In this document: positions 1-39,533 of the stretch, in pieces
Numbering within the stretch: the stretch's first letter is position 1
How the letters are laid out: each line of letters opens with the position of its first letter
NCBI GenBank assembly: GCA_964606385.1
Contig: CAZSFZ010000003.1
Coordinates: 29,493 to 93,492 of the forward strand
From: an uncultured bacterium
GTDB taxonomy: Bacteria; Omnitrophota; Omnitrophia; Omnitrophales; Aquincolibacteriaceae
DNA length: 64,000 nucleotides
Direction of reading: 5' to 3'
Program-made: the position numbers and the translations under genes
The notes under the pieces: model-generated
What the model was told of the DNA's origin: nothing
Seen by the model: the letters and a program-made list of their open reading frames with translations, nothing else
The model's database searches: none

Positions 1-732
1 CGGGTCCAGAATATTGATCACATTGGCAAGCGAACGGCCAAAGTGCCCGAAAAATACGTTCATAAAAGCGGCCGCAGCCGGATCGTTCCCGCGGTATTTC
101 AAAACAATATCCCGGAGCGGAAGTTTTTCGCCAAACTCGCGCTCATAGCGCTTTTCAAGACCCCCGCCGCTAATGAACGTTTCGACGCACCCGTGATTCC
201 CGCAATAACACTCCGGCCCCGCGGGATCAACCGACATGTGACCCCACTCCCCCGCGATCCCCTGGAGACCCGTGATCACTTTTCCTTCATGAACGATCCC
301 GCCGCCGCAGCCGGTCCCCATGATCACGCCAAAGACAAGTTTCTTACCCTTGCCGGCACCGAAGAGGGCTTCCGCCATGGCAAAACAATTGGCGTCATTC
401 TGGATCTCAATATCCCGGGCCAGCATTTTCCGGAGGTCTTCACGCAGAGGTTTACCGTTCAAGCAAACGGTGTTGGAATTTTTCAGGAGTCCGGTCGCGC
501 CCGAAATCGCTCCTGGCGTTCCGATGCCGACCGTATGGGGGTGCGGTCCGATCTTTTGCGCCAGTTTTCCGTAAACCCCGGCAAGATTGCGAAGGATATG
601 CGAATAGCCTTTTTCCTGTTCGGTCGGCACGCGCAGGCGATAGATCTCGCGGCCCGCGGGATCAAGGACAATACCTTCGATCTTGGTCCCGCCCAGATCA
701 AGTCCCGCGCGATAGGGGGAAGAATGCGTCAT
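1..732 (-). CDS. ROK family sugar kinase (glucokinase-like). The 3' end runs off the window start.
   Basis: The reverse-strand translation starts MTHSSPYRAGLDLGGTKIEGIVLD... This is the ROK N-terminal DxGGT motif. Later segments GIGTPG and HMSVDPAGPECYCGNHGCVE match the ROK Zn-binding Cys motif. A GGGAGG RBS sits 8 nt upstream of the ATG at 732. The gene is not in the ORF track because it is truncated by the window edge. Confidence 0.8.
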   Translation of the reverse strand, partial: MTHSSPYRAGLDLGGTKIEGIVLDPAGREIYRLRVPTEQEKGYSHILRNLAGVYGKLAQKIGPHPHTVGIGTPGAISGATGLLKNSNTVCLNGKPLREDLRKMLARDIEIQNDANCFAMAEALFGAGKGKKLVFGVIMGTGCGGGIVHEGKVITGLQGIAGEWGHMSVDPAGPECYCGNHGCVETFISGGGLEKRYEREFGEKLPLRDIVLKYRGNDPAAAAFMNVFFGHFGRSLANVINILDP

Positions 733-822
733 CACTTTGATCAGCCTCCCGGAGTCGAGCTCCCAGGCTTTTTGAATTTCAAGGCCCGCCGCTCAGACCA
801 GGTCCCGCTTGCCGCTTCTCAT

Positions 823-3800
823 TTAGAAATCGTAACGGGCGGTGCCGTAGTAGGTATTGCTCAGAAACTGATCTTTAACTTCGCAATCCCAGTTCCCGGT
901 GAGCGTCACGTTCCCTTTGTTCAGGAACGCGAGCTCCGCGCCGAAGATCATGCCGTTCTTGGCGGGTTTGGCGCCGATCGTGTCAAACGAAAGGCCGCCC
1001 CCCGCAAAAGAAGCGGTCGTCTGGAACCGGTCGCCAATATAATCATAGAGCCATGCCGCCTTGATCGAAGGAATGAAGGTGCCCATCTTCTTCGAAACCA
1101 CCGGATAGGCGAGCTTCATACCGAGACCCTGTTCCAGCTGATGGTATCCTTCCCCGTCCACCGTCAGGTTCAAGGCCCCGGCTCCTTTTTCCTTGTACTT
1201 GTTCATGTAAAGGAAGTTGTAGCCCAAGGACGCGAAAGGAGTGACTTCCAGATTCTTGGTCTTCTCGAACGTAAAGGTGTATCCCGTCTCGAAATTTGTG
1301 GAGTACTGCTGGCCATAGTGGTCCGCCTTCGCGACACGTTTGTTGGCAGGCGTCAGCCAGATCTCCCGGCGGCTGTCGTAGTTATTCTGGGTGAAGGCGA
1401 GCATTCCGTCCACGTACCAGAAATCATCCCCCTGGTTACGCACCGCCTCCCGGGAATTCTTGCCGAGCTTACGGGCTTCACAAAGGTTCAGGGAATCGAA
1501 ACTGCCGTAAACTGCCGCTTGAAAAGCATCCATGTCATGTGAGGGGCTGCCAGGCTGCTTGGAATTCACCCTCGCCCAGCCGTAGCTCCCGGCAAGACCC
1601 ATACGGACATGACGGTCGATCAGTTTATCTACACCGATCGTGGTCCCAAAGAGATTCGCTTTGTAACCCCGAATCCCCTTACGTTCGTCCTGCCTCATGT
1701 GGCTCCCGAGCTCCTGGGCCCAAACCCCTACCCCGTTCAGGATTTCTCCGGCGGAAACACCCGTGTTCCTAAACCCGGCGCTTCTTGCCCCTCCCATGCG
1801 ATTGCTTAACATTGAAAACGATTGCCTCGCAAGTGCCCGGCTTACCTCGAGAAGACCGGCGCTTACATCCGGATACATCGTGTCGAGCGCGGCCGCGACG
1901 TGCGCGCCGCTCGAACCTTCAAGTAGGTTCAAAACCGCGGACATATCGACGGTAGGGTTCGTAATGGCATCCAGAACAAGACCGACAGCTTCAGCATTCG
2001 AGTTCGTCGCATCCCCCGCGAAACCTCCGCCCACACGACTCGCCTTCAGGATCAGATCGCTTCCGGTTCCCGTTACAATAAATGTTACGCGGGAATTCCC
2101 GACAACAATTATTGCCGGAGCTACGATACCTGCACCTCCCCCTCCGTCAACAATTGTGTAGCTGGTATTTTCGGGAATGTAACTGGAAACTTTCAGCACG
2201 AGACTATCCCCCGCGTTAATCGTGCAGGCGCCTGTTGCAACAATGGAACCGCTGGCAGTTCCGTCAATGGCAGCCTGAAGCGTTGAAGGCGCCCCCCCCT
2301 GGGTATAAGCCCCGCCAATATTTAAAGTGATCAATCCAATATCGAGCGTGGCATTGTTCGTAACCCCTCCCGCTCCGGTTCCAAACGCGTTGGAGCTGTT
2401 GATTTGAATCGTACCTCCGGTGATCGTCGTCGCACCGGAATAAGTATTTACCCCTCCGAGGACTAATGTCCCGGTATCCGTTTTTGTCAGAGAACCTGCC
2501 CCCGCGATAATTCCGTTGTAGGTCAGGGTCTTGGCCGCATCGACATCGATCGTCCCCGCACCAGTCAAAGCAATACCCCGATTAGCGTGAAGTTCGAATG
2601 TCTCCGAAGCTTCCAGAGTTCCGCCATTAAAAGTAAGGTGCCCCGGCGTGGCTGCCGCCGGAACAGCGCCTAGGCCGGAATCAGCCGCAATGCTTAACGT
2701 GCCGGCGTTGATCGTCGTAGCCCCGCTAAAAGTATTGATCCCGCTCAAAGCGAGGGTTCCGGCCCCTGCCTTGGTCAGAGTATAACCGCTGCCACTGTCA
2801 CCAATCGAACCCCCAACGGTCAGCGTATTTCCGCCAACCGTAACTTGCCGATTAGCGCCCAGAGTCACGGCGCCTGTGCCTAAATTAAGACTTTGAGACG
2901 ACCCCGTGTAAGTAAAATCCCCATTCCAGAGCTGAGCGTTATGGGTCGTTAAAGTCGCGCCGCTCCCTCCGGTACGGTTCAGGGTGCCTCCGTTGATCAC
3001 GAATGTGCCCGTCCCAAGCGCCGTGGCGTTATTTAAATTTAATGTTGTGCCCAACGAAAGAGTTACCCCGCCCGAAAAAGCGCTGTTGTCTCCGGAAAGT
3101 ATCACAACACTCGCCCCGCTTGCCGTCAAGGCTCCTGCCCCGGATAAAGCACCGCTTAATTGAACGCTGCCGCCCGGAGGGCTTCCCGCATTCACGGTAA
3201 GCGCATTGTTTAACGTCATGGCGCCGCTAAAAACCGCCGAAGTCCCTCCGCTATTGCCAATAGTTAGAGTATTCCCGGCGCTGCCTGCCTGCACGGTAAT
3301 AGGGTTGGCAAAAGTCCGATTGTCGCCTAAAAGCGTTGCGTCCGCAGATCCGGAGGTCGCACCGAGAAAAACACTCCCGAGGCCCAAAGCGCTGGAATTG
3401 CTCGTGGCGCTCACGGTTCCGGCGTTGATCACTAACCCTCCGTTAAAGGTATTCGCGCCGCCAAGAGTTAATGTCCCCGTATCTGTTTTTGTCAGAGAAC
3501 CTCCCCCCGCGATGATTCCGCTGTAGGTCAGGGTCTTGGCCGCATCGACATCGATCGTACCCGCACCGGTTAATGCGATGCCTCTGTTGGCATTCAGCGT
3601 AAATGTATCGGACACCTCTAGCGTTCCGCCATTGAAAGTAAGATGTCCCGGCGTGGCCACCCCGGGAGCGGTGCCTAAACCCGAACCAGCGGAGATGCTC
3701 AGCGTACCGCTATTGATCGTTGTAGCGCCGCTGTAAGTATTAAGACCCGCAAGCGTCAACGTCCCGGCTCCGGATTGAGTAAGCGTTCCTACTCCGCTGA

Positions 3801-6800
3801 TAATTCCGCTATAAGTAAGCGCATCCGAACGGTTAAACACTAAAGATGCGTTATTGGTGATATTCCCAAGCACGGAACCTGAGGCGGCACCGGCGCCAAT
3901 CTGAAGCGTGCCACCGCTGATCGTGGTCCCGCCCGCATAAGTGTTGTTTCCGCTTAACACAAGTGTTCCAGCGCCATCCTTGATGAGAGCCCCGTTGCTG
4001 ATCACTCCGGAAACGGCCGTATTCCCCGTGCCATCGGCCGTGAGCGTGAAGCCTCCATTATCGACACTGCCCGCCACAGTAAAAGTATTACTGCTGTTAT
4101 TCAGCCATGTCTGCGCCGCACCCAGCACCACATCGTTATTCATCGTCAGTGCACCGGCGCCGGCGTTGATCGTCACGCCCCCCGCGTTGATCGTGAGCGT
4201 ATTCCCCGCCGCGATGCTCACCGCACTCGTTGCCGTCCCCCCCTGCAGGGTCAGGCTGTGGATCGTGAAATCCTGCCCCAAGGTCGTCGCAAAACTTCCT
4301 GCGCCATCGGCGTAAAAGTAAACATCCGTATTAGATGCCGGGATCGCTCCGGTATCGACCCCGCCGCTTTGCGTCGAATCCCAGTTGGTGGTATTGCCGA
4401 CGGTTTTAGTATTCCACAGATGGTCCCCTTCACCGTCCGTCCACCACGCCGTGGCCGGACCATCCAAGGCGCCGGTGTAGGTCAGTTCGAGATTATGACC
4501 GGTCACCTGAATGCCGAAATACCCGTTGCTGAAAAATCCGGTAATAGGATTGTTATTGGTAAAATTACCCGTCGAAAGCGTGAACGCTGAGGCGGAAAAA
4601 CCGGCAATGCTTGTATCGGAGCTGGCAACGGTCCAGGTATAGTTTGAATATTTGTCAAAATTCACCACCGCTCCAGAGATACTGGCGGCATTCAATCCAG
4701 TGATGTCGATCGTGAATTTGCTGCCGGCTGTGGCCGTTATGTTGAGGCTGCCCGAGGTGATGTTTTGCCAATCCCAGCCCGGATCAGAACCTTGCGTCCC
4801 ATCAACTTTGTTGATTTCCCATTTATAGGTGCCTCCCCCGGCATAAGTTACATCTCCTACGCTTGTGAGCTTACCGGGGCTATTGCCGGGTGAAAGAACG
4901 CTCCCCGTTCCTATGGTAAGATTGCCAGAAACGGTTCCGCTCCCTTTTAGAGTTTGTCCGCTTGCTAAAATCAAATCGTCAGTGCCAGCTAATCCCGTCA
5001 CATCAAGCGCTGCGCCTGAAGCGATGTTGATGGTCGGGGAACTAGCGATATTATTATTGGTTGCTCCGGACAACGCCAGAGTCCCCGCGCTCACGGTGGT
5101 CGTCCCAGTATAGGTGTTTGTTCCTGAGAGATGGAGCGTCCCGGCCCCGGATTTTGTAAGACCTACTGCCCCACCGCCAATGACTCCCCCTACTGTCAGA
5201 GTTCCACCATTGACAGTTACCTGGCGGCCGGCGCTCATCGTCACCGCACCGGCCCCAAGATTAAGATTCTTGGTTCCCAGAAATGTGAAATCGCCATTCC
5301 AGGCCATCGGATAATCGATGGTTGTAATGTCGGCCCCGCTTGTGTTGTCAATCGTGCCCCCAGCAATCGTGAATGTTCCCGCTGCCGTGCCAAGGGCTTG
5401 CGCATTATTGATGTTTAAAGTGCCTGCATTGATCTGAAAACCTCCCGTGAAAGTATTGGCTCCGCTTAATGTCAGTATTCCATCACCCGCCTTAGTAAAC
5501 TTTCTGTTTTGTCCAGAATCACCAACAACTCCAGCCAGTGCCAGCGTGCTCGCGTTGACGGTAATGGTCCGGTTCGCGCCACTGATAGTTGCCGCTCCAT
5601 TGATGGTAAGCGGGTTCGATCCCATAAAAGTGGGGCTGCCACCGCTCATGGTGAATGCATTCGCGATTGTGAGGGCACCGCCGGAGGTGTTATCAAAAGA
5701 AACTGCCGTTGCACCGCCAATGGTATATGTCCCGGATCCTAAGGCATTCACATGACCAATGTTCAGCAACCCGCCATTCGTATTGTGGGTGACGCCTCCG
5801 CTAAATGTGTTATTCCCGCTTAAAGTCAGTGTGCCAGCGCCTGCTTTGGTTAAAGTTCTGGAGGATCCATCTTCACCCACCGCCCCAGCCAGAGTAAGCG
5901 TGCTCGCGGTGACGGTAATGGTCCGGTTATTGCCGCTGATAGTTGTCGCTCCATTGATGGTAAGCGGGTTCGATCCCACAAAAGTGGGGCTGCCACCGCT
6001 CAGGGTGAATGTATTCGCGATCGTGAGGGCGCTACCGGAGGTGTTGTCAAATGAATTGCTTCCACTCATAGTATACGTTCCAGAACCTAAGGCATTCACA
6101 TGGCCGATGTTAAGTCTTCCGCCGCTTGCATTGTGGGTGACACCTCCGCTGAAAGTGTTATTCCCGTTTAAGGTCAGCATTCCAGCACCTGCCTTGATTA
6201 AATCCCCAGACCCGCTGATAACGCGCTCATAGGCGAGATCGTCAGAGCGATTAAAGGCCAAGGTCGCATTATTTGTGATATCCCCGACCACAGAACCCGT
6301 TGTGCCTCCCGCACCAATCTGGAGTCTGCCCCCGCTGATTGTGGTGCTCCCGGCATAAGTGTTATTGCCACTCAAGATGAGAGTGCCCGTACCTTCTTTG
6401 GTGATTCCATAAGAGTTACCACCATCACTCACGATACTGGAGACTGTGAGAGTGGCAACCCCAGATCCATTGTTAGTGGTAGTCCAGGTCTGGCTCGCAC
6501 CAAGGACAAGACTGGCCACACTAATGGTATAAGTCCTAGAAGTAGCTGAAGGAATAGCCGCCGTGATGCCACTAGCTCCGACGGTCAAAATTCCACCGCC
6601 AGAGGCAATTGCAAAAGCGGCTGCGCGATTGAATGTGATGCCAAGAAAATTCGCGTCAGCATTTATGGCAGCCGTAAGGCCAGCCGTACCGAAAGTAACA
6701 GTATCCGCACCCAGAAAGGTCGGATTGATGTCGCCGGACCAGTTAGTCGCTGTGTTGATATTTGTATCTGCCACTCCTCCGCCCCCATCCCACGTAAAAG

Positions 6801-6873
6801 GAGCGGCAAAAGTGGGCGCGGGGGATCCCAAAAGAAGAGCCCCTATCGCTATCATGGATATGATTTTTCTCAT
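823..6873 (-). CDS. Giant (2016 aa) autotransporter. It has an N-terminal signal peptide, a passenger built from autotransporter-associated beta-strand (PATR) repeats, and a C-terminal outer-membrane beta-barrel translocator.
   Basis: The signal peptide is MRKIISMIAIGALLLGSPAPTFAAP. There are dozens of GTLTLSGNNTYSGxTTIxGGTLxI repeats. The C-terminal ~280 aa is rich in aromatic/Gly residues and ends ...GTARYDF with a terminal Phe, which is the type Va beta-barrel signature. Long near-identical DNA repeats occur inside the gene. Confidence 0.85.
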   Translation of the reverse strand: MRKIISMIAIGALLLGSPAPTFAAPFTWDGGGGVADTNINTATNWSGDINPTFLGADTVTFGTAGLTAAINADANFLGITFNRAAAFAIASGGGILTVGASGITAAIPSATSRTYTISVASLVLGASQTWTTTNNGSGVATLTVSSIVSDGGNSYGITKEGTGTLILSGNNTYAGSTTISGGRLQIGAGGTTGSVVGDITNNATLAFNRSDDLAYERVISGSGDLIKAGAGMLTLNGNNTFSGGVTHNASGGRLNIGHVNALGSGTYTMSGSNSFDNTSGSALTIANTFTLSGGSPTFVGSNPLTINGATTISGNNRTITVTASTLTLAGAVGEDGSSRTLTKAGAGTLTLSGNNTFSGGVTHNTNGGLLNIGHVNALGSGTYTIGGATAVSFDNTSGGALTIANAFTMSGGSPTFMGSNPLTINGAATISGANRTITVNASTLALAGVVGDSGQNRKFTKAGDGILTLSGANTFTGGFQINAGTLNINNAQALGTAAGTFTIAGGTIDNTSGADITTIDYPMAWNGDFTFLGTKNLNLGAGAVTMSAGRQVTVNGGTLTVGGVIGGGAVGLTKSGAGTLHLSGTNTYTGTTTVSAGTLALSGATNNNIASSPTINIASGAALDVTGLAGTDDLILASGQTLKGSGTVSGNLTIGTGSVLSPGNSPGKLTSVGDVTYAGGGTYKWEINKVDGTQGSDPGWDWQNITSGSLNITATAGSKFTIDITGLNAASISGAVVNFDKYSNYTWTVASSDTSIAGFSASAFTLSTGNFTNNNPITGFFSNGYFGIQVTGHNLELTYTGALDGPATAWWTDGEGDHLWNTKTVGNTTNWDSTQSGGVDTGAIPASNTDVYFYADGAGSFATTLGQDFTIHSLTLQGGTATSAVSIAAGNTLTINAGGVTINAGAGALTMNNDVVLGAAQTWLNNSSNTFTVAGSVDNGGFTLTADGTGNTAVSGVISNGALIKDGAGTLVLSGNNTYAGGTTISGGTLQIGAGAASGSVLGNITNNASLVFNRSDALTYSGIISGVGTLTQSGAGTLTLAGLNTYSGATTINSGTLSISAGSGLGTAPGVATPGHLTFNGGTLEVSDTFTLNANRGIALTGAGTIDVDAAKTLTYSGIIAGGGSLTKTDTGTLTLGGANTFNGGLVINAGTVSATSNSSALGLGSVFLGATSGSADATLLGDNRTFANPITVQAGSAGNTLTIGNSGGTSAVFSGAMTLNNALTVNAGSPPGGSVQLSGALSGAGALTASGASVVILSGDNSAFSGGVTLSLGTTLNLNNATALGTGTFVINGGTLNRTGGSGATLTTHNAQLWNGDFTYTGSSQSLNLGTGAVTLGANRQVTVGGNTLTVGGSIGDSGSGYTLTKAGAGTLALSGINTFSGATTINAGTLSIAADSGLGAVPAAATPGHLTFNGGTLEASETFELHANRGIALTGAGTIDVDAAKTLTYNGIIAGAGSLTKTDTGTLVLGGVNTYSGATTITGGTIQINSSNAFGTGAGGVTNNATLDIGLITLNIGGAYTQGGAPSTLQAAIDGTASGSIVATGACTINAGDSLVLKVSSYIPENTSYTIVDGGGGAGIVAPAIIVVGNSRVTFIVTGTGSDLILKASRVGGGFAGDATNSNAEAVGLVLDAITNPTVDMSAVLNLLEGSSGAHVAAALDTMYPDVSAGLLEVSRALARQSFSMLSNRMGGARSAGFRNTGVSAGEILNGVGVWAQELGSHMRQDERKGIRGYKANLFGTTIGVDKLIDRHVRMGLAGSYGWARVNSKQPGSPSHDMDAFQAAVYGSFDSLNLCEARKLGKNSREAVRNQGDDFWYVDGMLAFTQNNYDSRREIWLTPANKRVAKADHYGQQYSTNFETGYTFTFEKTKNLEVTPFASLGYNFLYMNKYKEKGAGALNLTVDGEGYHQLEQGLGMKLAYPVVSKKMGTFIPSIKAAWLYDYIGDRFQTTASFAGGGLSFDTIGAKPAKNGMIFGAELAFLNKGNVTLTGNWDCEVKDQFLSNTYYGTARYDF

Positions 6874-7255
6874 TTCTAAGCAACACTCCGTATTTAAAAA
6901 TATTAACTCAACTCTAACGGCCCAATACGCGTCGAACGTGGTCAGTGTACTCCTATACCACCTGCCGGGAAACTCTTATTAGATTATCGGCTATCGAGCC
7001 CAAAGCTTATGACTAAACGAATCACTAGGCTTGTCTGAAGGCGTGGATTTGAAGCGGTAACCCTAAAGAAGAAGCGCGGAAAACATTCTGCAGATACACC
7101 TTCTGGAAAGATGCCTGGATCATTTTCACGATCTTTAGCTTAAAAAAACACCGTTGATCCCGAAAGCGTTAGAAGCGTCCGGGGAAAAAGGAATCTTTTC
7201 CACGGCCAGGAAGTCATGTCTGAAAAGCCTTGATCGCGTGTTGCGCCCGGTAGGA

Positions 7256-8992
7256 TCAATCGTTCAAAATGCAGGTGCGGTTCTTGCCTTCGGCTTTGGC
7301 CTTGAGGAGGGCATCCTGCGCGCGTTCGACGACTTTCTGGGGATTTTTTTCATTCGGCTGAAGGACGGAAACCCCGGCGCTGACCTTGACGGAAAGGGTT
7401 TTGTCCCCGGATTTGAAGGCGGAACGCTCGATGGTTTTGCGGATCCTCTCGGCGACGCCAAAAGTCGCGGTCGCGAGGTTATAACCCACCAGTAACACGA
7501 TAAAAACGTCCTCGCCGTAACGGCCCGCGATGTCGGGCATCGCGCGCCCCTTGGTTCGGATCGAATCCAGGATCACGGAGGCCACGTGTTTTAGGACGTT
7601 GTCCGCCATTTTGGCGCCGTGCTCTTCATTGAACTTTTTGAAGTCATCAATATCGAGCATAATCACAGAGAAGGGCTTGTGGAATGTCCGGGAGTAATTG
7701 AGCGCCTGGGACAGGAAGGTATTTACATAGCGCATGACATAAAGCCCTGTCAGCTCATCCCGCACCGCCAGGCTCAGGAAATACATCCTTTCCTTGTACT
7801 CCTGGATCTTCACGACCGCGAAAGAGATCAGAAAATAAGCTGCGATCAGAAAAAGAGGCGCCACCACTCCCGTCCAGATCCCGGCGTAGGAAAAAAGCAG
7901 GAAGGAGGCCAGGACCCAGATCCCCGCCATTACGAAAGCCATCAGCAGCGAAAAAACGCTCCGGAACGGGATCATCACGCTCATCGTCAGTAGCGCCACC
8001 AGCACCAGCGCCGCCGCAAACACATAAGAGTGGATCTTCCGGATGTACTGCCCGGTCAGGAGGGTATTGATGATATTCCCCAAAGCGCCGATCCCCGGGC
8101 TCGCGGACTCGAGCGGCGTGATCTTGAAATCAGAGGCCGTCATCCCGATGACGCATATTTTATCCTTAAAATCCTTTTCGCCGAGCGGTGCGGCCTGTCC
8201 CTTGGAGACTAACGCGTAGCTATTGAGCACATCGACGAACGGGTAATAGCCGGAAGCGGCATTCCAGCGTTGCGCCCAGTGGATCATGAGGTTGTTCTGT
8301 TCATCGCGCGGAAAATCGCAATCCTGGATCGTCGGCACGGGTTTCCCCAGATAATCATAAGCCACCCGGATCCCGAGATGCGGCACAAGCTGCTGGTTCA
8401 ATTTGACGAACGGGAATATGCGGCGGACCACATGGTCGGGGTCCTGGTTGTAATTGATATGCCCGATCCCCTTGGCCTGTTCGCTATAGACCGGGGAGGA
8501 TTGATTCACGTAATAATAATTTTTGAAACCCTCGGATTCGAAGGAAATGGGAAGGTAAACATTCGAAGTTTTCTTGAACTCCTCAACAAGCGCTTGATCA
8601 TCCTCGGGGGTCTCGGCATCCTGAGTAAAAAAAAGATTGAACACGATGGCCTTCGCGCCCCATTCCCGGAGGATGCGTGCGATCGCGGCGTAATACCGCT
8701 TGGGCCACGGGAAAGGCCGGATGGCCTGCAGGCTGTTCCGGTCGATCCCGATATACACGACCGCAGGGTCGACCTTGGGAGAGGGCTGGTATTTCAGAAA
8801 TTGATCGTAGAAATAATTGTCCAGGGAACGGAAGAAGGACGACCCTGAAAAGTTAAGGCACAGGGCCAGCACGAGGATAAAGCCGAGGATCTGGATCGTG
8901 CGCAGGGGGGTGAAGAAAAGGACCAACTGTCTCAAGGGCTCGGTCGCGTAGCCCTTCCGTTTTTTAACCAGACCTGCCGGCGCTTTTTCCAT
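7256..8992 (-). CDS. CHASE2 sensor domain - TM - GGDEF-domain protein with a degenerate active-site motif (GEDVF), so likely a non-catalytic c-di-GMP-related receptor.
   Basis: The CHASE2 signature is IRPFPWPKRYYA. Transmembrane segments follow, then a C-terminal GGDEF fold (DIDDFKKFNEEHGAKMADNVL...GRYGEDVFIVLL). GEDVF replaces GG(D/E)EF and there is no RxxD I-site. The likely start is MEKAP at 8992 with a GGGAGG RBS; the track's longer N-terminal extension to 9328 is doubtful. Confidence 0.75.
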   Translation of the reverse strand: MEKAPAGLVKKRKGYATEPLRQLVLFFTPLRTIQILGFILVLALCLNFSGSSFFRSLDNYFYDQFLKYQPSPKVDPAVVYIGIDRNSLQAIRPFPWPKRYYAAIARILREWGAKAIVFNLFFTQDAETPEDDQALVEEFKKTSNVYLPISFESEGFKNYYYVNQSSPVYSEQAKGIGHINYNQDPDHVVRRIFPFVKLNQQLVPHLGIRVAYDYLGKPVPTIQDCDFPRDEQNNLMIHWAQRWNAASGYYPFVDVLNSYALVSKGQAAPLGEKDFKDKICVIGMTASDFKITPLESASPGIGALGNIINTLLTGQYIRKIHSYVFAAALVLVALLTMSVMIPFRSVFSLLMAFVMAGIWVLASFLLFSYAGIWTGVVAPLFLIAAYFLISFAVVKIQEYKERMYFLSLAVRDELTGLYVMRYVNTFLSQALNYSRTFHKPFSVIMLDIDDFKKFNEEHGAKMADNVLKHVASVILDSIRTKGRAMPDIAGRYGEDVFIVLLVGYNLATATFGVAERIRKTIERSAFKSGDKTLSVKVSAGVSVLQPNEKNPQKVVERAQDALLKAKAEGKNRTCILND

Positions 8993-9197
8993 AGCCTCCC
9001 CAAAACGATTATCCATATAAAGGAATTCGGGATAATTTACGACCATACTGGTCGAAAACTTATCTTTTTCCAAGAATTTTTTATTTTTAGAAAGTCCATG
9101 CTCTTTGCGAAGCTCTGGGGTATAATCCCGAACCTTTGAAGGGGTGCTGGTTTGCCACATCGCCCGCTTTCCTTTCCTTATGCATTGAGGAGCATCC

Positions 9198-9896
9198 ATG
9201 GCCATACAAGGCTGGTTTAAGTTCAAGAAAATAAGGCTTCTCCTGGCGTGGGGATCGATCCCTATTCTCATAATTTCGTCCCAGATGACCGACGCCACAT
9301 TCCGCTGGGGCGTGATCCTCTTGATCATCGGGGAATTGATCCGCTTCTGGGCGCTTGGCTATATGGAACGCAAGGGCGAAAAACTCGCCATGAGCGGGCC
9401 CTACGCCTTCGTTCGTAATCCTCTTTATGTCGGTAATTTTTTTCTGGGGCTCGGCGTTGCCGTGATCGTCTGGAACTGGGTGATCGGGATCATCTTCCTG
9501 GTCGGGTTCCTGGGGATCTACACCGGAACCATCCTGGGTGAAGAAAAACATCTGCGGGAGATGTTCGGAAAAACCTATGACGATTACTGTAAAAATGTCC
9601 CTTCGTTCCTCCCGCGCCTGACCCCTTATAGAGCTCCCGAGAAGGATTCGTTTCAGTGGGGCCGCATCATCAAGCACCATGAGTACATCACGGTGCTCGG
9701 GATCATCCTCATGACCATCCTTATTCACCTTTACGATGACCTTTTCCTTTCCAAAGAACCCGTGGCGCACGAGATCCCGCTTATCATCGCGGCGGTGGCC
9801 GTGATCCTCATCCTCGTGTTGGAGCGGGTGTTTGTCAGCAAGCTTCACATCACATTCTTCGAACGCCTGCGCGAAAAACACACGCCCAAAAAATAA
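9198..9896 (+). CDS. Isoprenylcysteine carboxyl methyltransferase / phospholipid methyltransferase (ICMT/PEMT) family membrane protein.
   Basis: Multi-TM protein with MSGPYAFVRNPLYVGNF, the ICMT/PEMT family motif. A GAGGA RBS lies upstream of the ATG. Confidence 0.6.
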   Translation: MAIQGWFKFKKIRLLLAWGSIPILIISSQMTDATFRWGVILLIIGELIRFWALGYMERKGEKLAMSGPYAFVRNPLYVGNFFLGLGVAVIVWNWVIGIIFLVGFLGIYTGTILGEEKHLREMFGKTYDDYCKNVPSFLPRLTPYRAPEKDSFQWGRIIKHHEYITVLGIILMTILIHLYDDLFLSKEPVAHEIPLIIAAVAVILILVLERVFVSKLHITFFERLREKHTPKK

Positions 9897-9954
9897 TCTC
9901 CGTTTTCTTCACGATCTCCTCTCGGATATTTTTTCGCAGAAAAGCCGAAAAACG

Positions 9955-9984
9955 TTGACCCGGCCGCGTGAAAGAAAATATAAT
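9955..9984 (+). promoter_or_regulatory. Sigma70-type promoter for the homospermidine synthase operon.
   Basis: TTGACC (9955-9960), an 18-bp spacer, then TATAAT (9979-9984). A GGAG RBS at 9999-10002 precedes the ATG at 10007. Confidence 0.45.
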
Positions 9985-10006
9985 CTGAAAAAAATCACCG
10001 GAGAAC

Positions 10007-11464
10007 ATGATCATGCTGGAATTCAAACAGAAAGTCCTTCTTATCGGTTTCGGCTCCGTAGGCAAATGCACCCTGCCGATCCTTCTTAAACATGTCCGCA
10101 TTCCCTACAAGAACATCACGGTGCTCGACTTTGCCGACAAACGCAAGGAGCTCGCCCCTTGGATCCGCAAGGGCGTCCGTTATTCCCAGGAACGCATCAA
10201 CCCCATCAACATCGCCCGGACCCTTTCCAAGTATGTTTCTCCCGGAGGCATGATCGTCGACCTCTCCTGGAACATCGATTCGATCGACATGCTCTCGTGG
10301 TGCCATGAGAACAAGGTCTTGTATGTTAATACCTCCGTCGAAGAGTGGGACCCGTACGCCAATATCGACAAGAAAACGCCGCTCGAGAAATCCCTTTATT
10401 TCAAACAGATGGAGATCCGCAAGATGACGGCGAAGTGGAACGACGGATGCACGACCGCCGTCCTTGACCATGGCGCGAACCCCGGCTTGATCAGCCATTT
10501 CACCAAGCAGGGCCTGATCGATATCGCCGAAAAATCGATGCATGACAAAACCACGTCCAAGCGGGACCGGAAAACCCTGGAGCATCTCGTCCGCGAGGAA
10601 AAATTCCATCGCCTGGCGATGAAGCTCGGCGTCAAAACGATCCATATCAGCGAACGGGACACCCAGATCACGGATCAGCCCAAAGAAGTCGACGAGTTCG
10701 TCGGCACTTGGTCGATCGAGGGACTGCGCGAAGAAGCGATCTCCCCTTCCGAGATCGGGTGGGGCACGCATGAAAAAGAACTGCCGCCCCTTGCCACCGT
10801 GCCCGAATACGGCCCGCAGAACCAGATCTTCCTGTCCCAGATGGGGATGAACACCTGGGTGCGCTCCTGGGTCCCGAATTACGAGATCGTCGGCATGGTG
10901 ATCCGTCACGGCGAGGCGTTCTCGATCTCGGAGAAACTCACGGTGTGGCGGAACGGAAAAGCGGTTTACCGCCCGACCGTCCATTACGCTTACATGCCCT
11001 GCAATGAAACGCTCGCCTCGGTCCATGAGCTCCGGTGCCGCAATTATGAGCTCCAGCCCAAATGCCGCATCATGTCGGATGAGATCATCAAGGGCGCGGA
11101 CATCCTGGGGGCACTTATCATGGGCCACAAATACAACTCTTGGTGGACCGGAAGCATTCTCACGATCGACGAGGCCCGGGAACTCGTGCCGCACCAGAAC
11201 GCGACCACGATCCAGGTCGCGATCGGGATCGTCACCGCGGCCATGTGGATGATCGAGAACCCGGAAAAAGGCGTTTGCGTTCCCGACGATATTCCCCACA
11301 AAGGGGTCCTCGAGGTCGCCAAGCCGTACCTCGGAACTTTTGTTTCCGAAGCGAATGACTGGACTCCTTTTGAGAATTACCAGGTGTTCTTTCAGGAAAA
11401 TCAGGGCGCGCACCTCGACAAAAAGAATTTCTGGGGTTTCAAGAATTTCCTGTTCAAACCCTAA
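10007..11464 (+). CDS. hss: Homospermidine synthase (saccharopine dehydrogenase-like superfamily).
   Basis: Blocks recalled from bacterial HSS are present: LLIGFGSVGKCTLPIL (NAD fold), DHGANPGLISHFTKQ, GVKTIHISERDTQ, GTWSIEG, GWGTHE, VRSW, AVYRPTVHYAYMPCNE. The length is about 485 aa. Confidence 0.75.
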   Translation: MIMLEFKQKVLLIGFGSVGKCTLPILLKHVRIPYKNITVLDFADKRKELAPWIRKGVRYSQERINPINIARTLSKYVSPGGMIVDLSWNIDSIDMLSWCHENKVLYVNTSVEEWDPYANIDKKTPLEKSLYFKQMEIRKMTAKWNDGCTTAVLDHGANPGLISHFTKQGLIDIAEKSMHDKTTSKRDRKTLEHLVREEKFHRLAMKLGVKTIHISERDTQITDQPKEVDEFVGTWSIEGLREEAISPSEIGWGTHEKELPPLATVPEYGPQNQIFLSQMGMNTWVRSWVPNYEIVGMVIRHGEAFSISEKLTVWRNGKAVYRPTVHYAYMPCNETLASVHELRCRNYELQPKCRIMSDEIIKGADILGALIMGHKYNSWWTGSILTIDEARELVPHQNATTIQVAIGIVTAAMWMIENPEKGVCVPDDIPHKGVLEVAKPYLGTFVSEANDWTPFENYQVFFQENQGAHLDKKNFWGFKNFLFKP

Positions 11465-11482
11465 ACGCGCGAAGACCGCCCT

Positions 11483-11830
11483 ATGATCAAGAACAAAGCG
11501 TCTCAAGAGATCGAAAAGCGTGAAGCGATGCGCGGCGGCACCGGCTCCGTCACCCTCCGTCATTACTTCAAGCCGGAAGAGATCAAGGCCCGTACGCGTC
11601 TTTGCGCAGAACTCACGCTTCCTCCCGGAGCGAGCATCGGTACCCATGACCACACCGGAGAGGACGAGATCTATATCATCCAGAAAGGCCGGGGCCTCAT
11701 GACCGACGGCGGCAAGGAATTCACCGTCACGGCCGGCGACGCGATCCTGACGGGCCAGGGCGCGTCCCACTCCATCAAGAACACGGGCCCGGAAGATCTC
11801 GTGGTCACAGCCGTCATCATTAAGTATTGA
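11483..11830 (+). CDS. Cupin domain protein.
   Basis: A 115-aa protein with the two-His cupin motifs (GTHDHTGEDEIYIIQKG ... GASHSIKNTG). Confidence 0.6.
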   Translation: MIKNKASQEIEKREAMRGGTGSVTLRHYFKPEEIKARTRLCAELTLPPGASIGTHDHTGEDEIYIIQKGRGLMTDGGKEFTVTAGDAILTGQGASHSIKNTGPEDLVVTAVIIKY

Positions 11831-11905
11831 GATTAAAAAATTCACCTAAGACCCACCTCGCCTCGCAGGCGGGGTGGACCACTCCTACGAGGTGTGAGAG
11901 GTACC

Positions 11906-13021
11906 ATGCATCCCCTTTTCCCGCAAGAAACTTTCCTTCCGGCTAAGGTCCTTTTTCAAGCGAAAGCTATTTCCGATCTCGCCAAAGAAGCGGCCCTTTT
12001 CGGAAAAAGGGGCCTCATGGTCCACGGCGCCTCCCTCGAAAAAAACGGCCTCAAGGAAAAAATCGCGGACGACCTCAAGCGCGCGGGGATCGCCGCGGAA
12101 TTCTACTGCCGCCCCCAAGGTGAACCGACGCTTGATGAGATCAGCGCGGTGATCGCACGAGGGTACTCGTTCAAAATTGATTGGATCGCCGGGATCGGCG
12201 GCGGAAGCGTTCTGGACCTTGCCAAAGCCGCGGCCGGCCTTTTCCATGCGAAAGAAAAACCCGTCTTTTACCAGGAAGGCGGCGCCCTGGAAGCCGCGGG
12301 GATCCCGTTCCTTGCAATCCCGACGACGGCCGGGAGCGGTTCGGAAGCCTCGCCTAATTCGGTGATCATCAATCCGGAAAAAAAAGTAAAACTTTCCATC
12401 CGTCATCCGAGCTTTCTTGCCCGGAAAGTGATCCTGGATCCGGATCTTTTGAAAGGACTGCCTTTTTCGATCATGTGCCATTCCGGAATGGACGCCTGGG
12501 TCCAGGCCTATGAATCGTTCATCTCAAAGAACGCGACCTGGTTCAGCGAGAACTTCGCGCTCAAAGCCATTCAGCTGATCAGCCGCCATCTGGTCCCGGC
12601 CCTTAACACGGGGCGTGACGAGGACCTGAGCGGGCTGATGCTCGGGAGTTTTTTGGCCGGCGTCGCTTTTTCCCATTCGCGGCTCGGGGTGATCCATGGC
12701 CTCGCGCATCCGTTGGGCGTCCTTTATAACGTTCCCCACGGCCTGATCTGCTCGCTATTGTTCTCTCCTTCCATCAAGCTCAACATGAACGCCATGGGAA
12801 ACCAGAAATATTCGATCATGAGCCAGGCGGTCGGCATGGACCTCCTGCAAAAAGTGCATGAACTCCAGAAAACGCTCAAGATCGTCTCTCCCTTCAAGGG
12901 GAAGCCCCTCCCCGAAAAAGAAAAGATCATCCGCGAAACGCTGGAGTCCGGCTCCACCGCCGCAAATCCCAAGCCCATCACACGGGAAGACGTGGAGTAT
13001 CTCCTCCGCGAGATCTTTTAA
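11906..13021 (+). CDS. Iron-containing (group III) alcohol dehydrogenase family protein.
   Basis: GIGGGSVLDLAKAAA and PTTAGSGSEAS motifs, plus His-rich metal-site residues (HSGMDAW, HGLAHPLG). A GAGAGG RBS lies 6 nt upstream of the ATG at 11906. The track starts at a GTG at 11894. Confidence 0.8.
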   Translation: MHPLFPQETFLPAKVLFQAKAISDLAKEAALFGKRGLMVHGASLEKNGLKEKIADDLKRAGIAAEFYCRPQGEPTLDEISAVIARGYSFKIDWIAGIGGGSVLDLAKAAAGLFHAKEKPVFYQEGGALEAAGIPFLAIPTTAGSGSEASPNSVIINPEKKVKLSIRHPSFLARKVILDPDLLKGLPFSIMCHSGMDAWVQAYESFISKNATWFSENFALKAIQLISRHLVPALNTGRDEDLSGLMLGSFLAGVAFSHSRLGVIHGLAHPLGVLYNVPHGLICSLLFSPSIKLNMNAMGNQKYSIMSQAVGMDLLQKVHELQKTLKIVSPFKGKPLPEKEKIIRETLESGSTAANPKPITREDVEYLLREIF

Positions 13022-35801: not shown

Positions 35802-36425
35802 CTAATCCGTAAAGTGCAAGGTTTCCAAAGTGTGTTCAAAAAAGGGAAGGAACGTCTTGTACTGCTCGCGGGTCCCCACAAAACTAATTTGATAGTAGAA
35901 ATTTTTCCGGATCAGGAAAAGCTCCCTATTTAAGATCACCGCCCGTTGTTTTTCAGGAGCATATAGGGGAAGCAGGGAAACATACTGGTACTCGATGTAA
36001 GGGACTGTCCCGGCGCTGATCTGCTGATTGCCCTTTTTTATGAGCTCGAATTCCAAGAATCTTTTCTTTCCACTTAAAACGTTTTCCGCTATTTGGGCCC
36101 CGGTTTGGTTGAAAGGTGCCGATTTTTTTACAATAAAGATCGATACGGAAAACTTTGTCTTTGTGTCCTGAGGCCCTAACACGCTCACCATGTCAAATTT
36201 TCCGGAAAATTGACTGGTCGACATCTTCCATGTGGTGGGATATTCGAAACTAAAATCAAAAGGAGGATTTTTTTCATGAAAAGCTTTCCAGGAAGAGGGC
36301 GTGAAAGGAATCGATGTCTTTTGCGGAGACACTGTCGGCCGGTAAAGCGATAGCCACAGAACCAGAACGGCCCCCAATAAAATCATTCCTATTAGCAAAA
36401 ATGTTTTTTTGTTTTTAAAAGACAT
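35802..36425 (-). CDS. Hypothetical membrane-anchored protein (single N-terminal TM; possibly a PsbP/DUF1795-like fold).
   Basis: MSFKNKKTFLLIGMILLGAVLVLWL is the anchor. It contains ...FSFEYPTTWKMS. It lies in a lower-GC stretch. No confident family assignment. Confidence 0.35.
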   Translation of the reverse strand: MSFKNKKTFLLIGMILLGAVLVLWLSLYRPTVSPQKTSIPFTPSSWKAFHEKNPPFDFSFEYPTTWKMSTSQFSGKFDMVSVLGPQDTKTKFSVSIFIVKKSAPFNQTGAQIAENVLSGKKRFLEFELIKKGNQQISAGTVPYIEYQYVSLLPLYAPEKQRAVILNRELFLIRKNFYYQISFVGTREQYKTFLPFFEHTLETLHFTD

Positions 36426-36436
36426 AGAAGCCCCGC

Positions 36437-37987
36437 TTAGTAATCAAAAAGTTTTCCGTAATCTCCACGGCTTTTCAAATATTTTATCATTTCGTCATCA
36501 AACGGCTGAACGCCTTGCAGGGCCCCTTGATCATCCAGGATCAAAAACTGGTCCAGGTCGCTATCAAAAGAATCGTAGTCTTGTTGAAGCTTCTCGTCCA
36601 GCGATGACCGGCTCACGCTACTCCTCAGATCATACCAAGCCTGGGCATCCGCCACAAAAGCGCTATATTCCTGAAAAAGAGAATTGCTGGACCGCGGGCC
36701 CGTCCAACCTTCCGGCGCGACCCACCCGGCAGGCGGCAACCCGTACGCGGGAAGCGGGGCGTTCGGATCCGCTTGAATTCTCTCTTGATAATCAAGCAGG
36801 TCTTTGTCCCAAATATTATGAAGTATTTCGTGAGCCAAAAGCGATGAGGTCATTCCTTCGGGAGCTTCGGAGAATCTCTCATCGACGACGATCACACTCT
36901 GCACAACGTCATTGTTCTCCGAAATGGCATGCGTGTAGTAAGCATAAGCGCCATTGTTGCCGGGAGTTCCTCCATATAAAATTTTTGTGGTCTCCCCATC
37001 AAGAAATGTAATCTCATCCTCGCCGCTGGTAATGGCCTGACCGGGAAACTGAAACGCATAAGCGTCGATCGCATCCAGGGCATTCTTGCTCGAGGTAACC
37101 ATCTTGTCAAAGTCCGCATTATTCCCGGCCTTGCCGCAGACCTCGGAAGAGTATTCTGACTGATATTGGACTCCCTGGTGCTCAACTATCGTTTTTGCCC
37201 GGAAACAATAGGTGCGTCCATTCCTTCCTTGCTCCAGATCCCCTGCAAAATCGGAGCAAATCGTTTCCGAAGTTCCTCCTATATATTCCCAGTCGGAAGT
37301 AACCCCTTTATACTCTTCCCTCATTTGCATGATATACCCCAAAGCATCCGCATAGGGTGTAAAACTGAAATCTAACCATCCTCCCGTGTTGGAAAAAACC
37401 TCTAGATCCTGAGGCGCAAGCACCGTGTAATAAGTGCCGCCCCCTATCGTGTATGAGAATGAGCCCCCGGAACCTCCGCCCGAACCTCCGCCTCCAGAGC
37501 CGCCGCCGGACCCGCCGCCTTCAGAGCCGCTGCCGGAACCTCCTCCGGAACCGGCTCCTCCAGAACCCGAACCATAATTTCCGCTTGATCCTGAATTAAA
37601 ATTCACAAAACCATCTTTATTGATACCGATAGTATCAAGCCATTCGCTTAAAGGGCCGACAGGCGTTGCCAGCGCCAAAAAATCTACCTCATCCGCGTTG
37701 ATAATGCTGTAATCGTAAAAACCTCCTCCCACGATAAGCCCCAAGACAGATTCGATCCCCGACTCGTCCTCGGCGCCAACGAACTTCCCAAGCAATTCAT
37801 ACATACGCAACTCAGCGAGGCGTATGGAACCGAGGTTATTAACCGCCTCCGCCTTCTTGGATTGTTCGATCTGGTGGACCACCCGGGTGATCGCAATGGT
37901 CGCAAGAACCGCGATAATGACGATCGAAATCAACATTTCAAGAAGGGTCACCCCTTGCTGCTTTTTACGCGTAAAAATGGTTTTCAA
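36437..37987 (-). CDS. Type IV pilin-like (prepilin N-terminal methylation site) protein fused through a Gly/Ser-rich linker to a large C-terminal domain carrying an HExxH zinc-metallopeptidase-like motif.
   Basis: The N-terminus MKTIFTRKKQQG|VTLLEMLISIVIIAVLATIAI is a class III signal peptide, with Gly at -1 and Glu at +5. A short pilin-like region follows, then GSGSGGAGSGGGSGSGSEGGGSGGGSGGGGSGGGSGG, then a ~330-aa domain with LLAHEILHNIWD. No pilus assembly genes are in the window. Confidence 0.6.
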   Translation of the reverse strand: MKTIFTRKKQQGVTLLEMLISIVIIAVLATIAITRVVHQIEQSKKAEAVNNLGSIRLAELRMYELLGKFVGAEDESGIESVLGLIVGGGFYDYSIINADEVDFLALATPVGPLSEWLDTIGINKDGFVNFNSGSSGNYGSGSGGAGSGGGSGSGSEGGGSGGGSGGGGSGGGSGGSFSYTIGGGTYYTVLAPQDLEVFSNTGGWLDFSFTPYADALGYIMQMREEYKGVTSDWEYIGGTSETICSDFAGDLEQGRNGRTYCFRAKTIVEHQGVQYQSEYSSEVCGKAGNNADFDKMVTSSKNALDAIDAYAFQFPGQAITSGEDEITFLDGETTKILYGGTPGNNGAYAYYTHAISENNDVVQSVIVVDERFSEAPEGMTSSLLAHEILHNIWDKDLLDYQERIQADPNAPLPAYGLPPAGWVAPEGWTGPRSSNSLFQEYSAFVADAQAWYDLRSSVSRSSLDEKLQQDYDSFDSDLDQFLILDDQGALQGVQPFDDEMIKYLKSRGDYGKLFDY

Positions 37988-39443: not shown

Positions 39444-39533
39444 TGGCGGAGAGGGGGAGATTCGAACTCCCGATACGCTTGCGCGTATAACAGTTTTCGA
39501 GACTGCCGCATTCGGCCACTCTGCCACCTCTCC
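39444..39533 (-). tRNA. tRNA-Ser (anticodon CGA), class II with a long variable arm. CCA is encoded.
   Basis: The sequence on the minus strand is GGAGAGGTGGCAGAGTGGCCGAATGCGGCAGTCTCGAAAACTGTTATACGCGCAAGCGTATCGGGAGTTCGAATCTCCCCCTCTCCGCCA. The acceptor is GGAGAGG/CCTCTCC, the anticodon loop is CTCGAAA, the variable-arm hairpin is ATACGC-GCAA-GCGTAT, and the T-arm is GGGAG-TTCGAAT-CTCCC. Confidence 0.9.

What the first reader, a model, noticed from the sequence alone, without database searches (positions are those of the whole stretch)
823..6873. 2016-aa PATR-repeat autotransporter with long near-identical intragenic DNA repeats
This single ORF has a Sec signal, about 1700 aa of autotransporter-associated beta-strand repeats (GTLTLSGNNTYSGATTI.GGTL.I) and a C-terminal beta-barrel ending YDF. 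At the DNA level there is a tandem ~360-bp repeat at about 5520-5880 and 5880-6240 that is near identical over more than 250 bp. A second pair at about 2400-2640 and 3430-3670, roughly 1 kb apart, is also near identical. Such repeats are substrates for RecA-mediated expansion or contraction, which implies variation in adhesin length or antigenicity. They are also a likely assembly-collapse hotspot.
Basis: partly seen in the sequence, partly recalled or inferred. Interest (0 to 1): 0.5.

Follow-up and report, generated by a model that had tools for sequence, protein, structure and literature searches.

The report
Ordinary PATR autotransporter with old internal repeats
This is an intact, ordinary surface-protein gene of the autotransporter type, probably from an uncultured Omnitrophota bacterium, and its internal DNA repeats are old copies about 80% alike, not the near-identical repeats that make such genes change length quickly.

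Summary
The 2016-aa ORF is real but lies on the minus strand (823-6873). It has a Sec-type leader, 10-11 PATR motifs in a predicted beta-helix passenger, and a full-length autotransporter barrel (PF03797, E 2.8e-51) ending in RYDF. The classical (type Va) autotransporter reading holds.

Both DNA repeat pairs exist near the stated positions, but neither is near identical:
- Tandem pair (period 354/348 bp): 80% identical, 82% in the best 250-bp window, longest exact run 32 bp.
- Dispersed pair (1005 bp apart): 79.5% identical, 79% in the best 250-bp window, longest exact run 37 bp.

Synonymous divergence is high (dS about 0.6 and 1.3), so the duplications are old. Each pair holds one 100-125 bp tract that is 93% identical and almost free of synonymous change (permutation P 0.0035 and <0.0005). 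These tracts look like past gene conversion.

No repeated 41-mer exists in the gene, so assembly collapse is unlikely. No close allele was found, so copy-number variation between strains is untested.

The passenger is two PATR modules in series. The first ends in a domain that precedes PEP-CTERM anchors in other proteins. In related Omnitrophota the barrel is conserved while the passengers at the same locus differ.

Verdict: new member of a known kind, low interest.

The parts
823..6873 (-). Complete CDS of the 2016-aa PATR-type autotransporter (stop codon 823-825)
   Evidence: ORF list; translation; PF12951 + PF03797; TIGR02601
6805..6873 (-). Sec-type signal peptide, aa 1-23 (MRK / hydrophobic core / TFA-A); no lipobox cysteine
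   Evidence: Sequence inspection; no predictor available
4384..6804 (-). Passenger module A, aa 24-830: head (aa 24-121), beta-helix with PATR motifs at aa 157, 225, 341, 460 and 572, then tail domain
5848..6201 (-). Tandem unit u1 (aa 225-342, 118 aa)
   Evidence: u1 vs u2: 77% aa, 80% nt, dS 0.565, dN 0.141. Each is the other's closest relative among all sampled proteins
5494..5847 (-). Tandem unit u2 (aa 343-460)
5140..5493 (-). Diverged third unit u3 (aa 461-578). About 40% aa identity to u1/u2 and about 70% to units in other PATR proteins
   Evidence: (dS >1.5)
5899..6021 (-). Candidate gene-conversion tract in u1 (aa 285-325); partner tract is 5545-5667 in u2 (aa 403-443)
   Evidence: 1 of 35 informative codons differ synonymously inside the tract vs 25 of 57 outside; max-chi2 permutation P = 7/2000. 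93% nt identity
5545..5667 (-). Partner of the conversion tract, in u2
4384..4953 (-). Tail domain of module A (aa 641-830, 'SPGNSPGKLT...'), no Pfam match. The same domain sits directly before a PEP-CTERM signal in other PATR proteins
   Evidence: AF2 model of aa 600-960 is all-beta with pLDDT 70
1726..4383 (-). Passenger module B, aa 831-1716: second head (AWWTDGEGDHLWN..TNW), PATR motifs at aa 963, 1031, 1127, 1249, 1366 and 1462, then pre-barrel region
   Evidence: (module A vs B, 45% aa)
3373..3786 (-). Dispersed repeat copy D1 (aa 1030-1167)
   Evidence: D1 vs D2: 73% aa, 79.5% nt over 273 bp, dS 1.26, dN 0.20; spacing 1005 bp = 335 codons
2371..2781 (-). Dispersed repeat copy D2 (aa 1365-1501)
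3469..3567 (-). Candidate gene-conversion tract in D1 (aa 1103-1135); partner tract is 2464-2562 in D2 (aa 1438-1470)
   Evidence: 4 of 31 informative codons differ synonymously inside vs 46 of 70 outside; permutation P = 0/2000. 93% nt identity over 100 bp
2464..2562 (-). Partner of the conversion tract, in D2
826..1725 (-). C-terminal translocator (autotransporter beta-barrel), aa 1717-2016, ending RYDF
   Evidence: PF03797 E 2.8e-51, model positions 1-254 of 255. Family profile hits the EstA barrel 3kvn at E 9e-12. 73-85% identical in related Omnitrophota autotransporters
7256..9328 (-). Upstream same-strand neighbour: CHASE2-GGDEF diguanylate cyclase, 382 bp from the autotransporter start. 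Context only; a functional link is not shown
   Evidence: Pfam; NCBIfam; also adjacent to an autotransporter in L019

Best explanation
The gene encodes a classical (type Va) autotransporter of the PATR subtype, in a chromosome of an uncultured bacterium most likely of the phylum Omnitrophota.

Inferred mechanism, from established knowledge of type Va secretion:
- The N-terminal leader takes the protein through Sec.
- The C-terminal roughly 300 aa insert as a beta-barrel in the outer membrane.
- The roughly 1690-aa passenger is threaded out and folds into a long right-handed beta-helix rod on the cell surface.
- No catalytic domain was detected, so it most likely acts as an adhesin.

The passenger is two PATR modules in series, each with its own head. 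The first module ends in a tail domain that in other proteins precedes a PEP-CTERM anchor. This suggests an ancestral fusion or concatenation of modules.

The DNA repeats are old, in-frame duplications of beta-helix blocks: a 118-codon unit duplicated in tandem, and a roughly 137-codon block copied 335 codons away. They have diverged to about 80% identity. Each pair has been locally re-homogenised by a gene-conversion event of about 100-125 bp.

They therefore record slow modular evolution of the passenger. They are not a fast length switch and not an assembly fault.
For: Shown:
- Intact ORF.
- PF12951 x10, and PF03797 over the full model at E 2.8e-51; TIGR02601.
- The barrel family profile matches the solved EstA barrel.
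- Repeat identities are 80.2% and 79.5%. dS is 0.565 and 1.262 with dN/dS well below 1.
- Tracts poor in synonymous change have P 0.0035 and <0.0005.
- No repeated k-mer of 41 or more exists in the gene.
- u1/u2 and D1/D2 are each other's nearest relatives among all sampled proteins.
- Module A vs B is 45% aa identical.
- The tail domain is followed by PEP-CTERM in seven other proteins.
- Internal repeats of 67-82% identity are usual in related PATR genes.
- Neighbouring housekeeping genes are 68-82% aa identical and syntenic with an Omnitrophota MAG, L003.

Inferred: the secretion pathway, the adhesin role, the fusion history, and gene conversion as the cause of the low-dS tracts.
Against: - No signal-peptide predictor was run and there is no experimental secretion data.
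- An adhesin role is only a default for PATR passengers without enzyme domains. No ligand-binding domain was identified.
- The low-dS tracts coincide with the most conserved amino-acid stretches. Some local constraint on codons cannot be fully excluded, although the test used only codons that encode identical residues.
- The source is probably a short-read MAG, so near-identical extra copies, if present in the real genome, could have been lost in assembly.
Confidence: 0.8

Rival explanations
1. One reading: the repeats are active substrates for RecA-mediated expansion and contraction, so the adhesin varies in length or antigenicity between closely related cells, as in Periscope proteins or ShdA.
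For: - All repeat offsets are multiples of 3 (354, 348, 1005 bp), so unequal exchange stays in frame.
- Exact runs of 32 and 37 bp are just above the roughly 25-bp minimum for RecA pairing (my own knowledge).
- Conversion-like tracts show the copies have interacted.
- PATR repeat number varies in ShdA (PMC9704523) and in Brucella Bma proteins (PMC8111173).
- Relatives differ greatly in passenger length, 982-2604 aa.
Against: - There are only two copies per pair, at about 80% identity, with dS 0.57-1.26.
- In Periscope proteins, variation scales with repeat identity and is seen in highly identical arrays (PMC8201768).
- TRF finds no array.
- No allele differing in copy number could be found.
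- The length differences among relatives come from unrelated passengers, not from unit copy number.
Confidence: 0.1
2. The repeat structure is an assembly artefact: a collapsed, expanded or chimeric join of repeats in a metagenome assembly.
For: The source is probably a MAG contig (the protein is seen once, on a 184,568-bp contig). Repetitive surface-protein genes are known trouble spots for short reads (PMC8201768).
Against: - No k-mer of 41 or more is repeated in the gene, and only five 33-mers are.
- The ORF is uninterrupted for 6 kb, with signal peptide and barrel intact.
- The copies differ at about 20% of sites, so reads place uniquely.
- Unit boundaries are in frame.
Confidence: 0.04
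3. The passenger is not an adhesin. It could be a secreted effector or enzyme scaffold, or module A could be released by cleavage at the flexible junction (aa about 805-842).
For: - The junction between the modules is predicted with low confidence (pLDDT <50 at model residues 206-243).
- Many autotransporter passengers are cleaved (established knowledge).
- There are weak NCBIfam similarities to protease autotransporters EprS and fusolisin.
Against: - The EprS and fusolisin matches are far below their cut-offs (80 vs 1700 bits; 54 vs 999 bits). The EprS match covers the pre-barrel and barrel region; the fusolisin match covers a PATR region.
- Pfam finds no catalytic domain.
- There are no PDB sequence hits for the passenger.
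Confidence: 0.1

Closest known systems
PATR-subtype classical (type Va) autotransporters, e.g. IcsA, ShdA, Brucella BmaA/B/C (Doyle et al. 2015 as cited in PMC8111173)
   Same: Signal peptide, beta-helix passenger punctuated by PATR motifs (PF12951/TIGR02601), C-terminal PF03797 barrel, large size, no protease domain.
   Different: - Only distant sequence similarity: the ShdA model scores 107 bits against a cut-off of 2249.
- It comes from an uncultured Omnitrophota-like genome rather than a proteobacterial pathogen.
- The passenger is two complete PATR modules with an internal tail-head junction.
Omnitrophota autotransporter family with the conserved SNTYYGT[AV]RYDF barrel (e.g. HNX68375.1, MFA5390370.1; loci L001-L008, L018-L022)
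   Same: The barrel is 73-85% identical and the pre-barrel 36-58%. L003 and L019 share the genomic neighbourhood.
   Different: Passengers are mosaic or unrelated:
- The syntenic gene in L019 is a 1022-aa non-PATR autotransporter.
- L003 has a PATR autotransporter of 1857 aa, a non-PATR one of 1011 aa and a PATR protein of more than 3253 aa.
- The u1/u2 and D1/D2 duplications are specific to this gene.
Periscope proteins: length-variable surface proteins with highly identical tandem DNA repeats (PMC8201768, PMC9704523)
   Same: A surface rod protein with in-frame repeated blocks. PATR repeat number variation (ShdA, 4-6) is listed in that class.
   Different: The repeats here are about 80% identical, with two copies plus one diverged. 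They are segments of one continuous beta-helix rather than independently folding domains. No copy-number variation was observed.
PEP-CTERM-anchored PATR proteins (e.g. P0007, P0014, P0088)
   Same: Module A (head, PATR beta-helix, 'SPGNSPG...' tail domain) has the same layout. The tail domain is 31-44% identical to theirs in the aligned segments.
   Different: Where those proteins have the PEP-CTERM signal, this one has a short linker followed by a second PATR module and an autotransporter barrel.

Membership tests
Classical (type Va) autotransporter | C-terminal autotransporter beta-barrel domain (PF03797) | tested here: met
   aa 1717-1995 match model positions 1-254 of 255, E 2.8e-51, 175 bits vs cut-off 26. 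The family profile hits the EstA barrel 3kvn at E 9e-12.
Classical (type Va) autotransporter | N-terminal Sec signal peptide | tested here: inconclusive
   MRK + hydrophobic core + TFA/A fits the n-h-c pattern by inspection. No predictor was available.
Classical (type Va) autotransporter | Passenger between the signal and the barrel on one polypeptide, folding as a right-handed beta-helix | tested here: met
Classical (type Va) autotransporter | C-terminal aromatic residue (outer-membrane protein signature) | tested here: met
   The protein ends ...TARYDF. The ending is conserved as RYDF or RFDF in most close relatives and always ends in F.
Classical (type Va) autotransporter | Passenger actually exported through or with the barrel | not testable with these tools
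   Needs expression and surface-exposure assays.
PATR autotransporter subtype | One or more PATR motifs (PF12951 / TIGR02601) in the passenger | tested here: met
   10 stretches in each library, E 1.1e-72 and 1.5e-68; 11 with my own HMM.
ShdA fibronectin-binding autotransporter (NF011847) | Score at or above the equivalog cut-off | tested here: not met
   107 bits vs cut-off 2249.
Periscope proteins | Long tandem repeats with high DNA identity | tested here: not met
   80% identity, two copies plus a third at about 40% aa identity. TRF finds nothing.
Periscope proteins | Repeat number differs between closely related strains | not testable with these tools
   No allele above 65% identity exists outside the exact sequence in the collections searched.
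PEP-CTERM surface proteins | C-terminal PEP-CTERM sorting signal | tested here: not met
   The tail domain is present, but a linker and a second module stand where relatives have [IV]PEP + TM + RRR.
Simple-sequence phase-variable genes | Homopolymer or short tandem tract that is unexpected and conserved | tested here: not met
   One G8 tract at 2292-2299. It is expected from the Gly-rich coding (56 GG dipeptides, about 3.5 expected as GGGGGG, 2 seen) and is absent from relatives.

The most novel reading that the evidence does not exclude
The locus downstream of the CHASE2-GGDEF cyclase is a surface-protein swap site in Omnitrophota. Different passengers are exchanged onto a conserved barrel: PATR, non-PATR, or a de-anchored PEP-CTERM-type module fused in front of an autotransporter. 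Gene conversion keeps the blocks recombining. The result is a repertoire of attachment rods used by these very small, possibly host-dependent bacteria to bind partner or prey cells, perhaps under c-di-GMP control.
Probability: 0.2. Interest if true: 0.45.

Novelty: new member of a known kind. Interest (0 to 1): 0.22.

Why it matters
It matters little beyond annotation. The gene adds a well-supported PATR autotransporter to a poorly studied candidate phylum. It is also a cautionary example: repeats that look 'near identical' by eye can be 80% identical and old.

Three observations are mildly useful:
- The passenger is built of two full PATR modules, the first resembling a PEP-CTERM-type protein without its anchor.
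- Related genomes keep the barrel but carry different passengers at the same locus.
- Short gene-conversion tracts are detectable inside the gene.

If Omnitrophota do attach to other cells, as proposed for their giant proteins (bioRxiv 10.1101/2023.11.21.568195), such autotransporters are candidate attachment factors.

Tried and rejected
- Tandem Repeats Finder on 600-7100 found nothing.
- Inverted repeats or an invertible promoter upstream: only two weak 13-16 nt pairs.
- The sigma-70 promoter and terminator scan was not above shuffled expectation.
- Rfam on 1-10000 found nothing.
- Phase variation through the G8 tract was rejected as chance in a Gly-rich gene.
- Exact-protein contig look-up: not on record.
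- Close alleles were sought in GTDB species genomes and in JGI metagenomes. None were found; the best matches were barrel-only at 58-81%.
- phmmer of the whole protein against PDB gave no hit.
- I first took minus-strand ORFs 9087-12481 for conserved unknown neighbours, because tblastn showed 'synteny'. I rejected them as shadow ORFs of plus-strand metabolic genes.
- A second autotransporter paralogue in the window: none.
Full report
**The observation.**
The window holds one uninterrupted ORF at 823-6873, 2016 aa, but on the minus strand (translation). It starts MRKIISMIAIGALLLGSPAPTFA/AP. By inspection this has the charged, hydrophobic and small-residue pattern of a Sec leader and no lipobox cysteine.
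- Pfam finds PATR (PF12951, 10 stretches, E 1.1e-72). It also finds the autotransporter beta-domain (PF03797) at aa 1717-1995, covering positions 1-254 of the 255-position model, E 2.8e-51.
- NCBIfam finds TIGR02601 ten times (E 1.5e-68). Named equivalogs (ShdA, EprS, fusolisin) score far below their cut-offs.
- The protein ends ...TARYDF.
- An HMM built from the protein itself finds 11 strong PATR motifs at aa 157, 225, 341, 460, 572, 963, 1031, 1127, 1249, 1366 and 1462. The passenger is therefore punctuated by PATR motifs rather than made of 1700 aa of them.

**The DNA repeats.**
Both pairs exist close to the stated positions and are far beyond chance.
- The tandem pair is 5462-5854 vs 5816-6202 (period 354/348 bp, blastn E 2.5e-98).
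- The dispersed pair is 2464-2736 vs 3469-3741 (spacing 1005 bp, E 9.4e-66).

They are not near identical.
- Overall identity is 80.2% and 79.5%.
- The best 250-bp windows are 81.6% and 79.2%. Only 100-125 bp tracts reach 93%.
- The longest exact runs are 32 and 37 bp.
- Tandem Repeats Finder reports nothing.
- Within the gene no 41-mer is repeated and only five 33-mers are.

An assembler using k above about 40 would not collapse these copies. Reads that differ at one site in five place uniquely.

**Age and history of the repeats.**
At protein level the tandem region is three 118-aa units: u1 (aa 225-342), u2 (343-460) and u3 (461-578). u1 and u2 are 77% identical, and u3 is about 40% identical to either. 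The dispersed copies are D1 (aa 1030-1167) and D2 (1365-1501), 73% identical.
- Nei-Gojobori estimates are dS 0.565 and dN 0.141 for u1/u2, and dS 1.262 and dN 0.197 for D1/D2. These are old duplications under purifying selection.
- Among all proteins sampled, u1 and u2 are each other's closest relatives (77% vs 53% or less). The same holds for D1 and D2 (73% vs 66% or less). u3 is closer to units of other proteins, at about 70%. The duplications are therefore specific to this gene lineage.
- Synonymous differences are not spread evenly. Among codons that encode the same residue, one tract in each pair is almost free of them.
  - Tandem pair: aa 285-325 vs 403-443 (nt 5899-6021 vs 5545-5667), 1 of 35 informative codons differ inside the tract against 25 of 57 outside.
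  - Dispersed pair: aa 1103-1135 vs 1438-1470 (nt 3469-3567 vs 2464-2562), 4 of 31 inside against 46 of 70 outside.
  - Max-chi-square permutation gives P = 7/2000 and 0/2000.

I read these tracts as gene-conversion patches of about 100-125 bp. The copies have recombined in the past, but this is patchy homogenisation, not copy-number change.

**Structure and architecture.**
- An AlphaFold2 model of aa 150-610, built on 11 aligned sequences, has pLDDT 80.5 and pTM 0.74. It consists only of short strands.
- A profile of the C-terminal domain matches the solved EstA autotransporter barrel (3kvn, E 9e-12).
- The passenger is two modules. Residues 122-600 align with 915-1394 at about 45% identity. 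A second head of the kind found at the N-terminus (AWWTDGEGDHLWN...TNW) begins near aa 830.
- Between the modules lies a PATR-free tail domain (aa 641-830, 'SPGNSPGKLT...').
- The model of aa 600-960 is all-beta (pLDDT 70), with a low-confidence stretch at aa about 805-842 that may be a hinge.
- In seven non-autotransporter PATR proteins the same tail domain sits at the very C-terminus, directly followed by a PEP-CTERM signal. In others (P0040, P0028, P0024, P0015, P0009) the whole tail-head junction is internal, as it is here.

Module A therefore looks like a PEP-CTERM-type PATR protein that lost its anchor and was joined in front of a PATR autotransporter. This is an inference from domain order only.

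**Context and relatives.**
- The gene lies in ordinary chromosomal context. A ROK kinase is downstream and a CHASE2-GGDEF diguanylate cyclase is 382 bp upstream on the same strand. Plus-strand metabolic genes follow.
- The exact protein is in NCBI once, unnamed, on a 184,568-bp contig. No close allele exists in GTDB species genomes or JGI metagenomes.
- The nearest relatives are autotransporters of Candidatus Omnitrophota MAGs. All end SNTYYGTVRYDF, and their lengths range from 982 to 2604 aa.
- Two loci are syntenic through rSAM, HI0933, TRAM methyltransferase and LpxL, with 68-84% aa identity. They are L003, an Omnitrophota MAG, and L019, a JGI metagenome contig. This supports an Omnitrophota origin for the window.
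- At that position L019 has only a 1022-aa non-PATR autotransporter. L003 has a PATR autotransporter of 1857 aa, a non-PATR one of 1011 aa and a PATR protein of more than 3253 aa.
- Barrels are 73-85% identical across the family, while passengers are mosaic or unrelated.
- Internal DNA repeats of 67-82% identity are common in related PATR genes. One caveat applies: short-read MAGs would under-represent near-identical repeats.

**Comparison with what is known.**
The gene meets the sequence and predicted-fold criteria tested for a type Va autotransporter and for the PATR subtype (Doyle et al. 2015, as cited in PMC8111173); the signal peptide was judged only by inspection, and export could not be tested. 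PATR number differences between species and strains are known in Brucella Bma proteins (PMC8111173) and in ShdA (PMC9704523). This gene does not meet that definition. It has two copies at 80% identity, the units are segments of one continuous beta-helix, and no variation was observed. From my own knowledge, RecA-dependent exchange needs about 25 bp of identity and falls steeply with divergence. Runs of 32-37 bp in 80% identical DNA permit only rare events, which fits the sparse conversion tracts seen here.

**Verdict.**
This is a real, intact and ordinary PATR autotransporter, a new member of a known kind. The repeats are real but old. The claims of near-identity, rapid length variation and assembly hazard are not supported. 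The two-module passenger, the conversion tracts and the variable passenger content at a conserved locus in Omnitrophota are modest points of interest. They may be relevant if these bacteria attach to other cells, as proposed for their giant proteins (bioRxiv 10.1101/2023.11.21.568195).

Noticed in passing
window 9087-9881, 9995-11845, 11885-12481 (minus strand): Long minus-strand ORFs with no family hits and odd D/R/H/F-rich translations are shadow ORFs. The real genes are on the plus strand: PEMT-like methyltransferase 9198-9896, saccharopine dehydrogenase 10007-11464, cupin 11483-11830, Fe-alcohol dehydrogenase 11894-13021. tblastn 'conservation' of the shadow frames was misleading.
   Followed up: yes
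window 7256-9328 (-) and 44419-46191 (-): Two CHASE2-GGDEF diguanylate cyclase paralogues. The first sits directly upstream of the autotransporter, and its 73%-identical counterpart sits upstream of a different autotransporter in L019. In L003 only a 55-aa remnant matches. A c-di-GMP link to the surface protein is possible but untested.
   Followed up: partly
window 2292-2299: The only G/C homopolymer of 8 or more in the 64-kb window (G8 on the coding strand, codons Q1525-G-G-A) lies inside the autotransporter. It is expected from the Gly-rich coding and is not conserved in relatives, so it is probably not a phase-variation tract.
   Followed up: yes
L003 8966-27602; L019 8642-11710; L018: The syntenic locus in related Omnitrophota carries different surface-protein sets. 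L003 has a PATR autotransporter of 1857 aa, a non-PATR autotransporter of 1011 aa and a PATR protein of more than 3253 aa. L019 has only the non-PATR autotransporter. The barrels of the two adjacent L003 genes are 73% identical.
   Followed up: partly
window 4384-4953 (aa 641-830); proteins P0007, P0014, P0043, P0084, P0088, P0102, P0116: A domain with no Pfam match ('SPGNSPGxLT ... GF.A.AF.L.T..F') directly precedes the PEP-CTERM signal in seven PATR proteins. It is internal, followed by a new head, in this and several other proteins. It may deserve a family model.
   Followed up: partly
window 36000-40000: A stretch of lower G+C (0.49 against about 0.55). It holds a 516-aa protein with an N-terminal methylation (type IV pilin-like) motif at 36437-37987 (-) and a TPR protein at 37984-39585 (-).
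   Followed up: no
window 46301-49477 (-): A 1058-aa class II ribonucleotide reductase with the barrel domain matched in two stretches and a C-terminal TSCPD domain. The split match was not examined.
   Followed up: no
proteins P0023, P0025, P0070, P0073, P0112 and others: A super-repeat of about 116-120 aa (one PATR motif plus further rungs, '...LTKAGAGTLTLSGANTFTGG.TL.AGTLNINNA.ALG...NYPQ.WNG.FTFTGT..LNLG.GAV...R.VTV...TLTVGG.ISG') recurs 3-5 times in tandem in PATR proteins, some of them from MAGs of other phyla. The u1-u3 units here are instances of a general higher-order repeat.
   Followed up: partly
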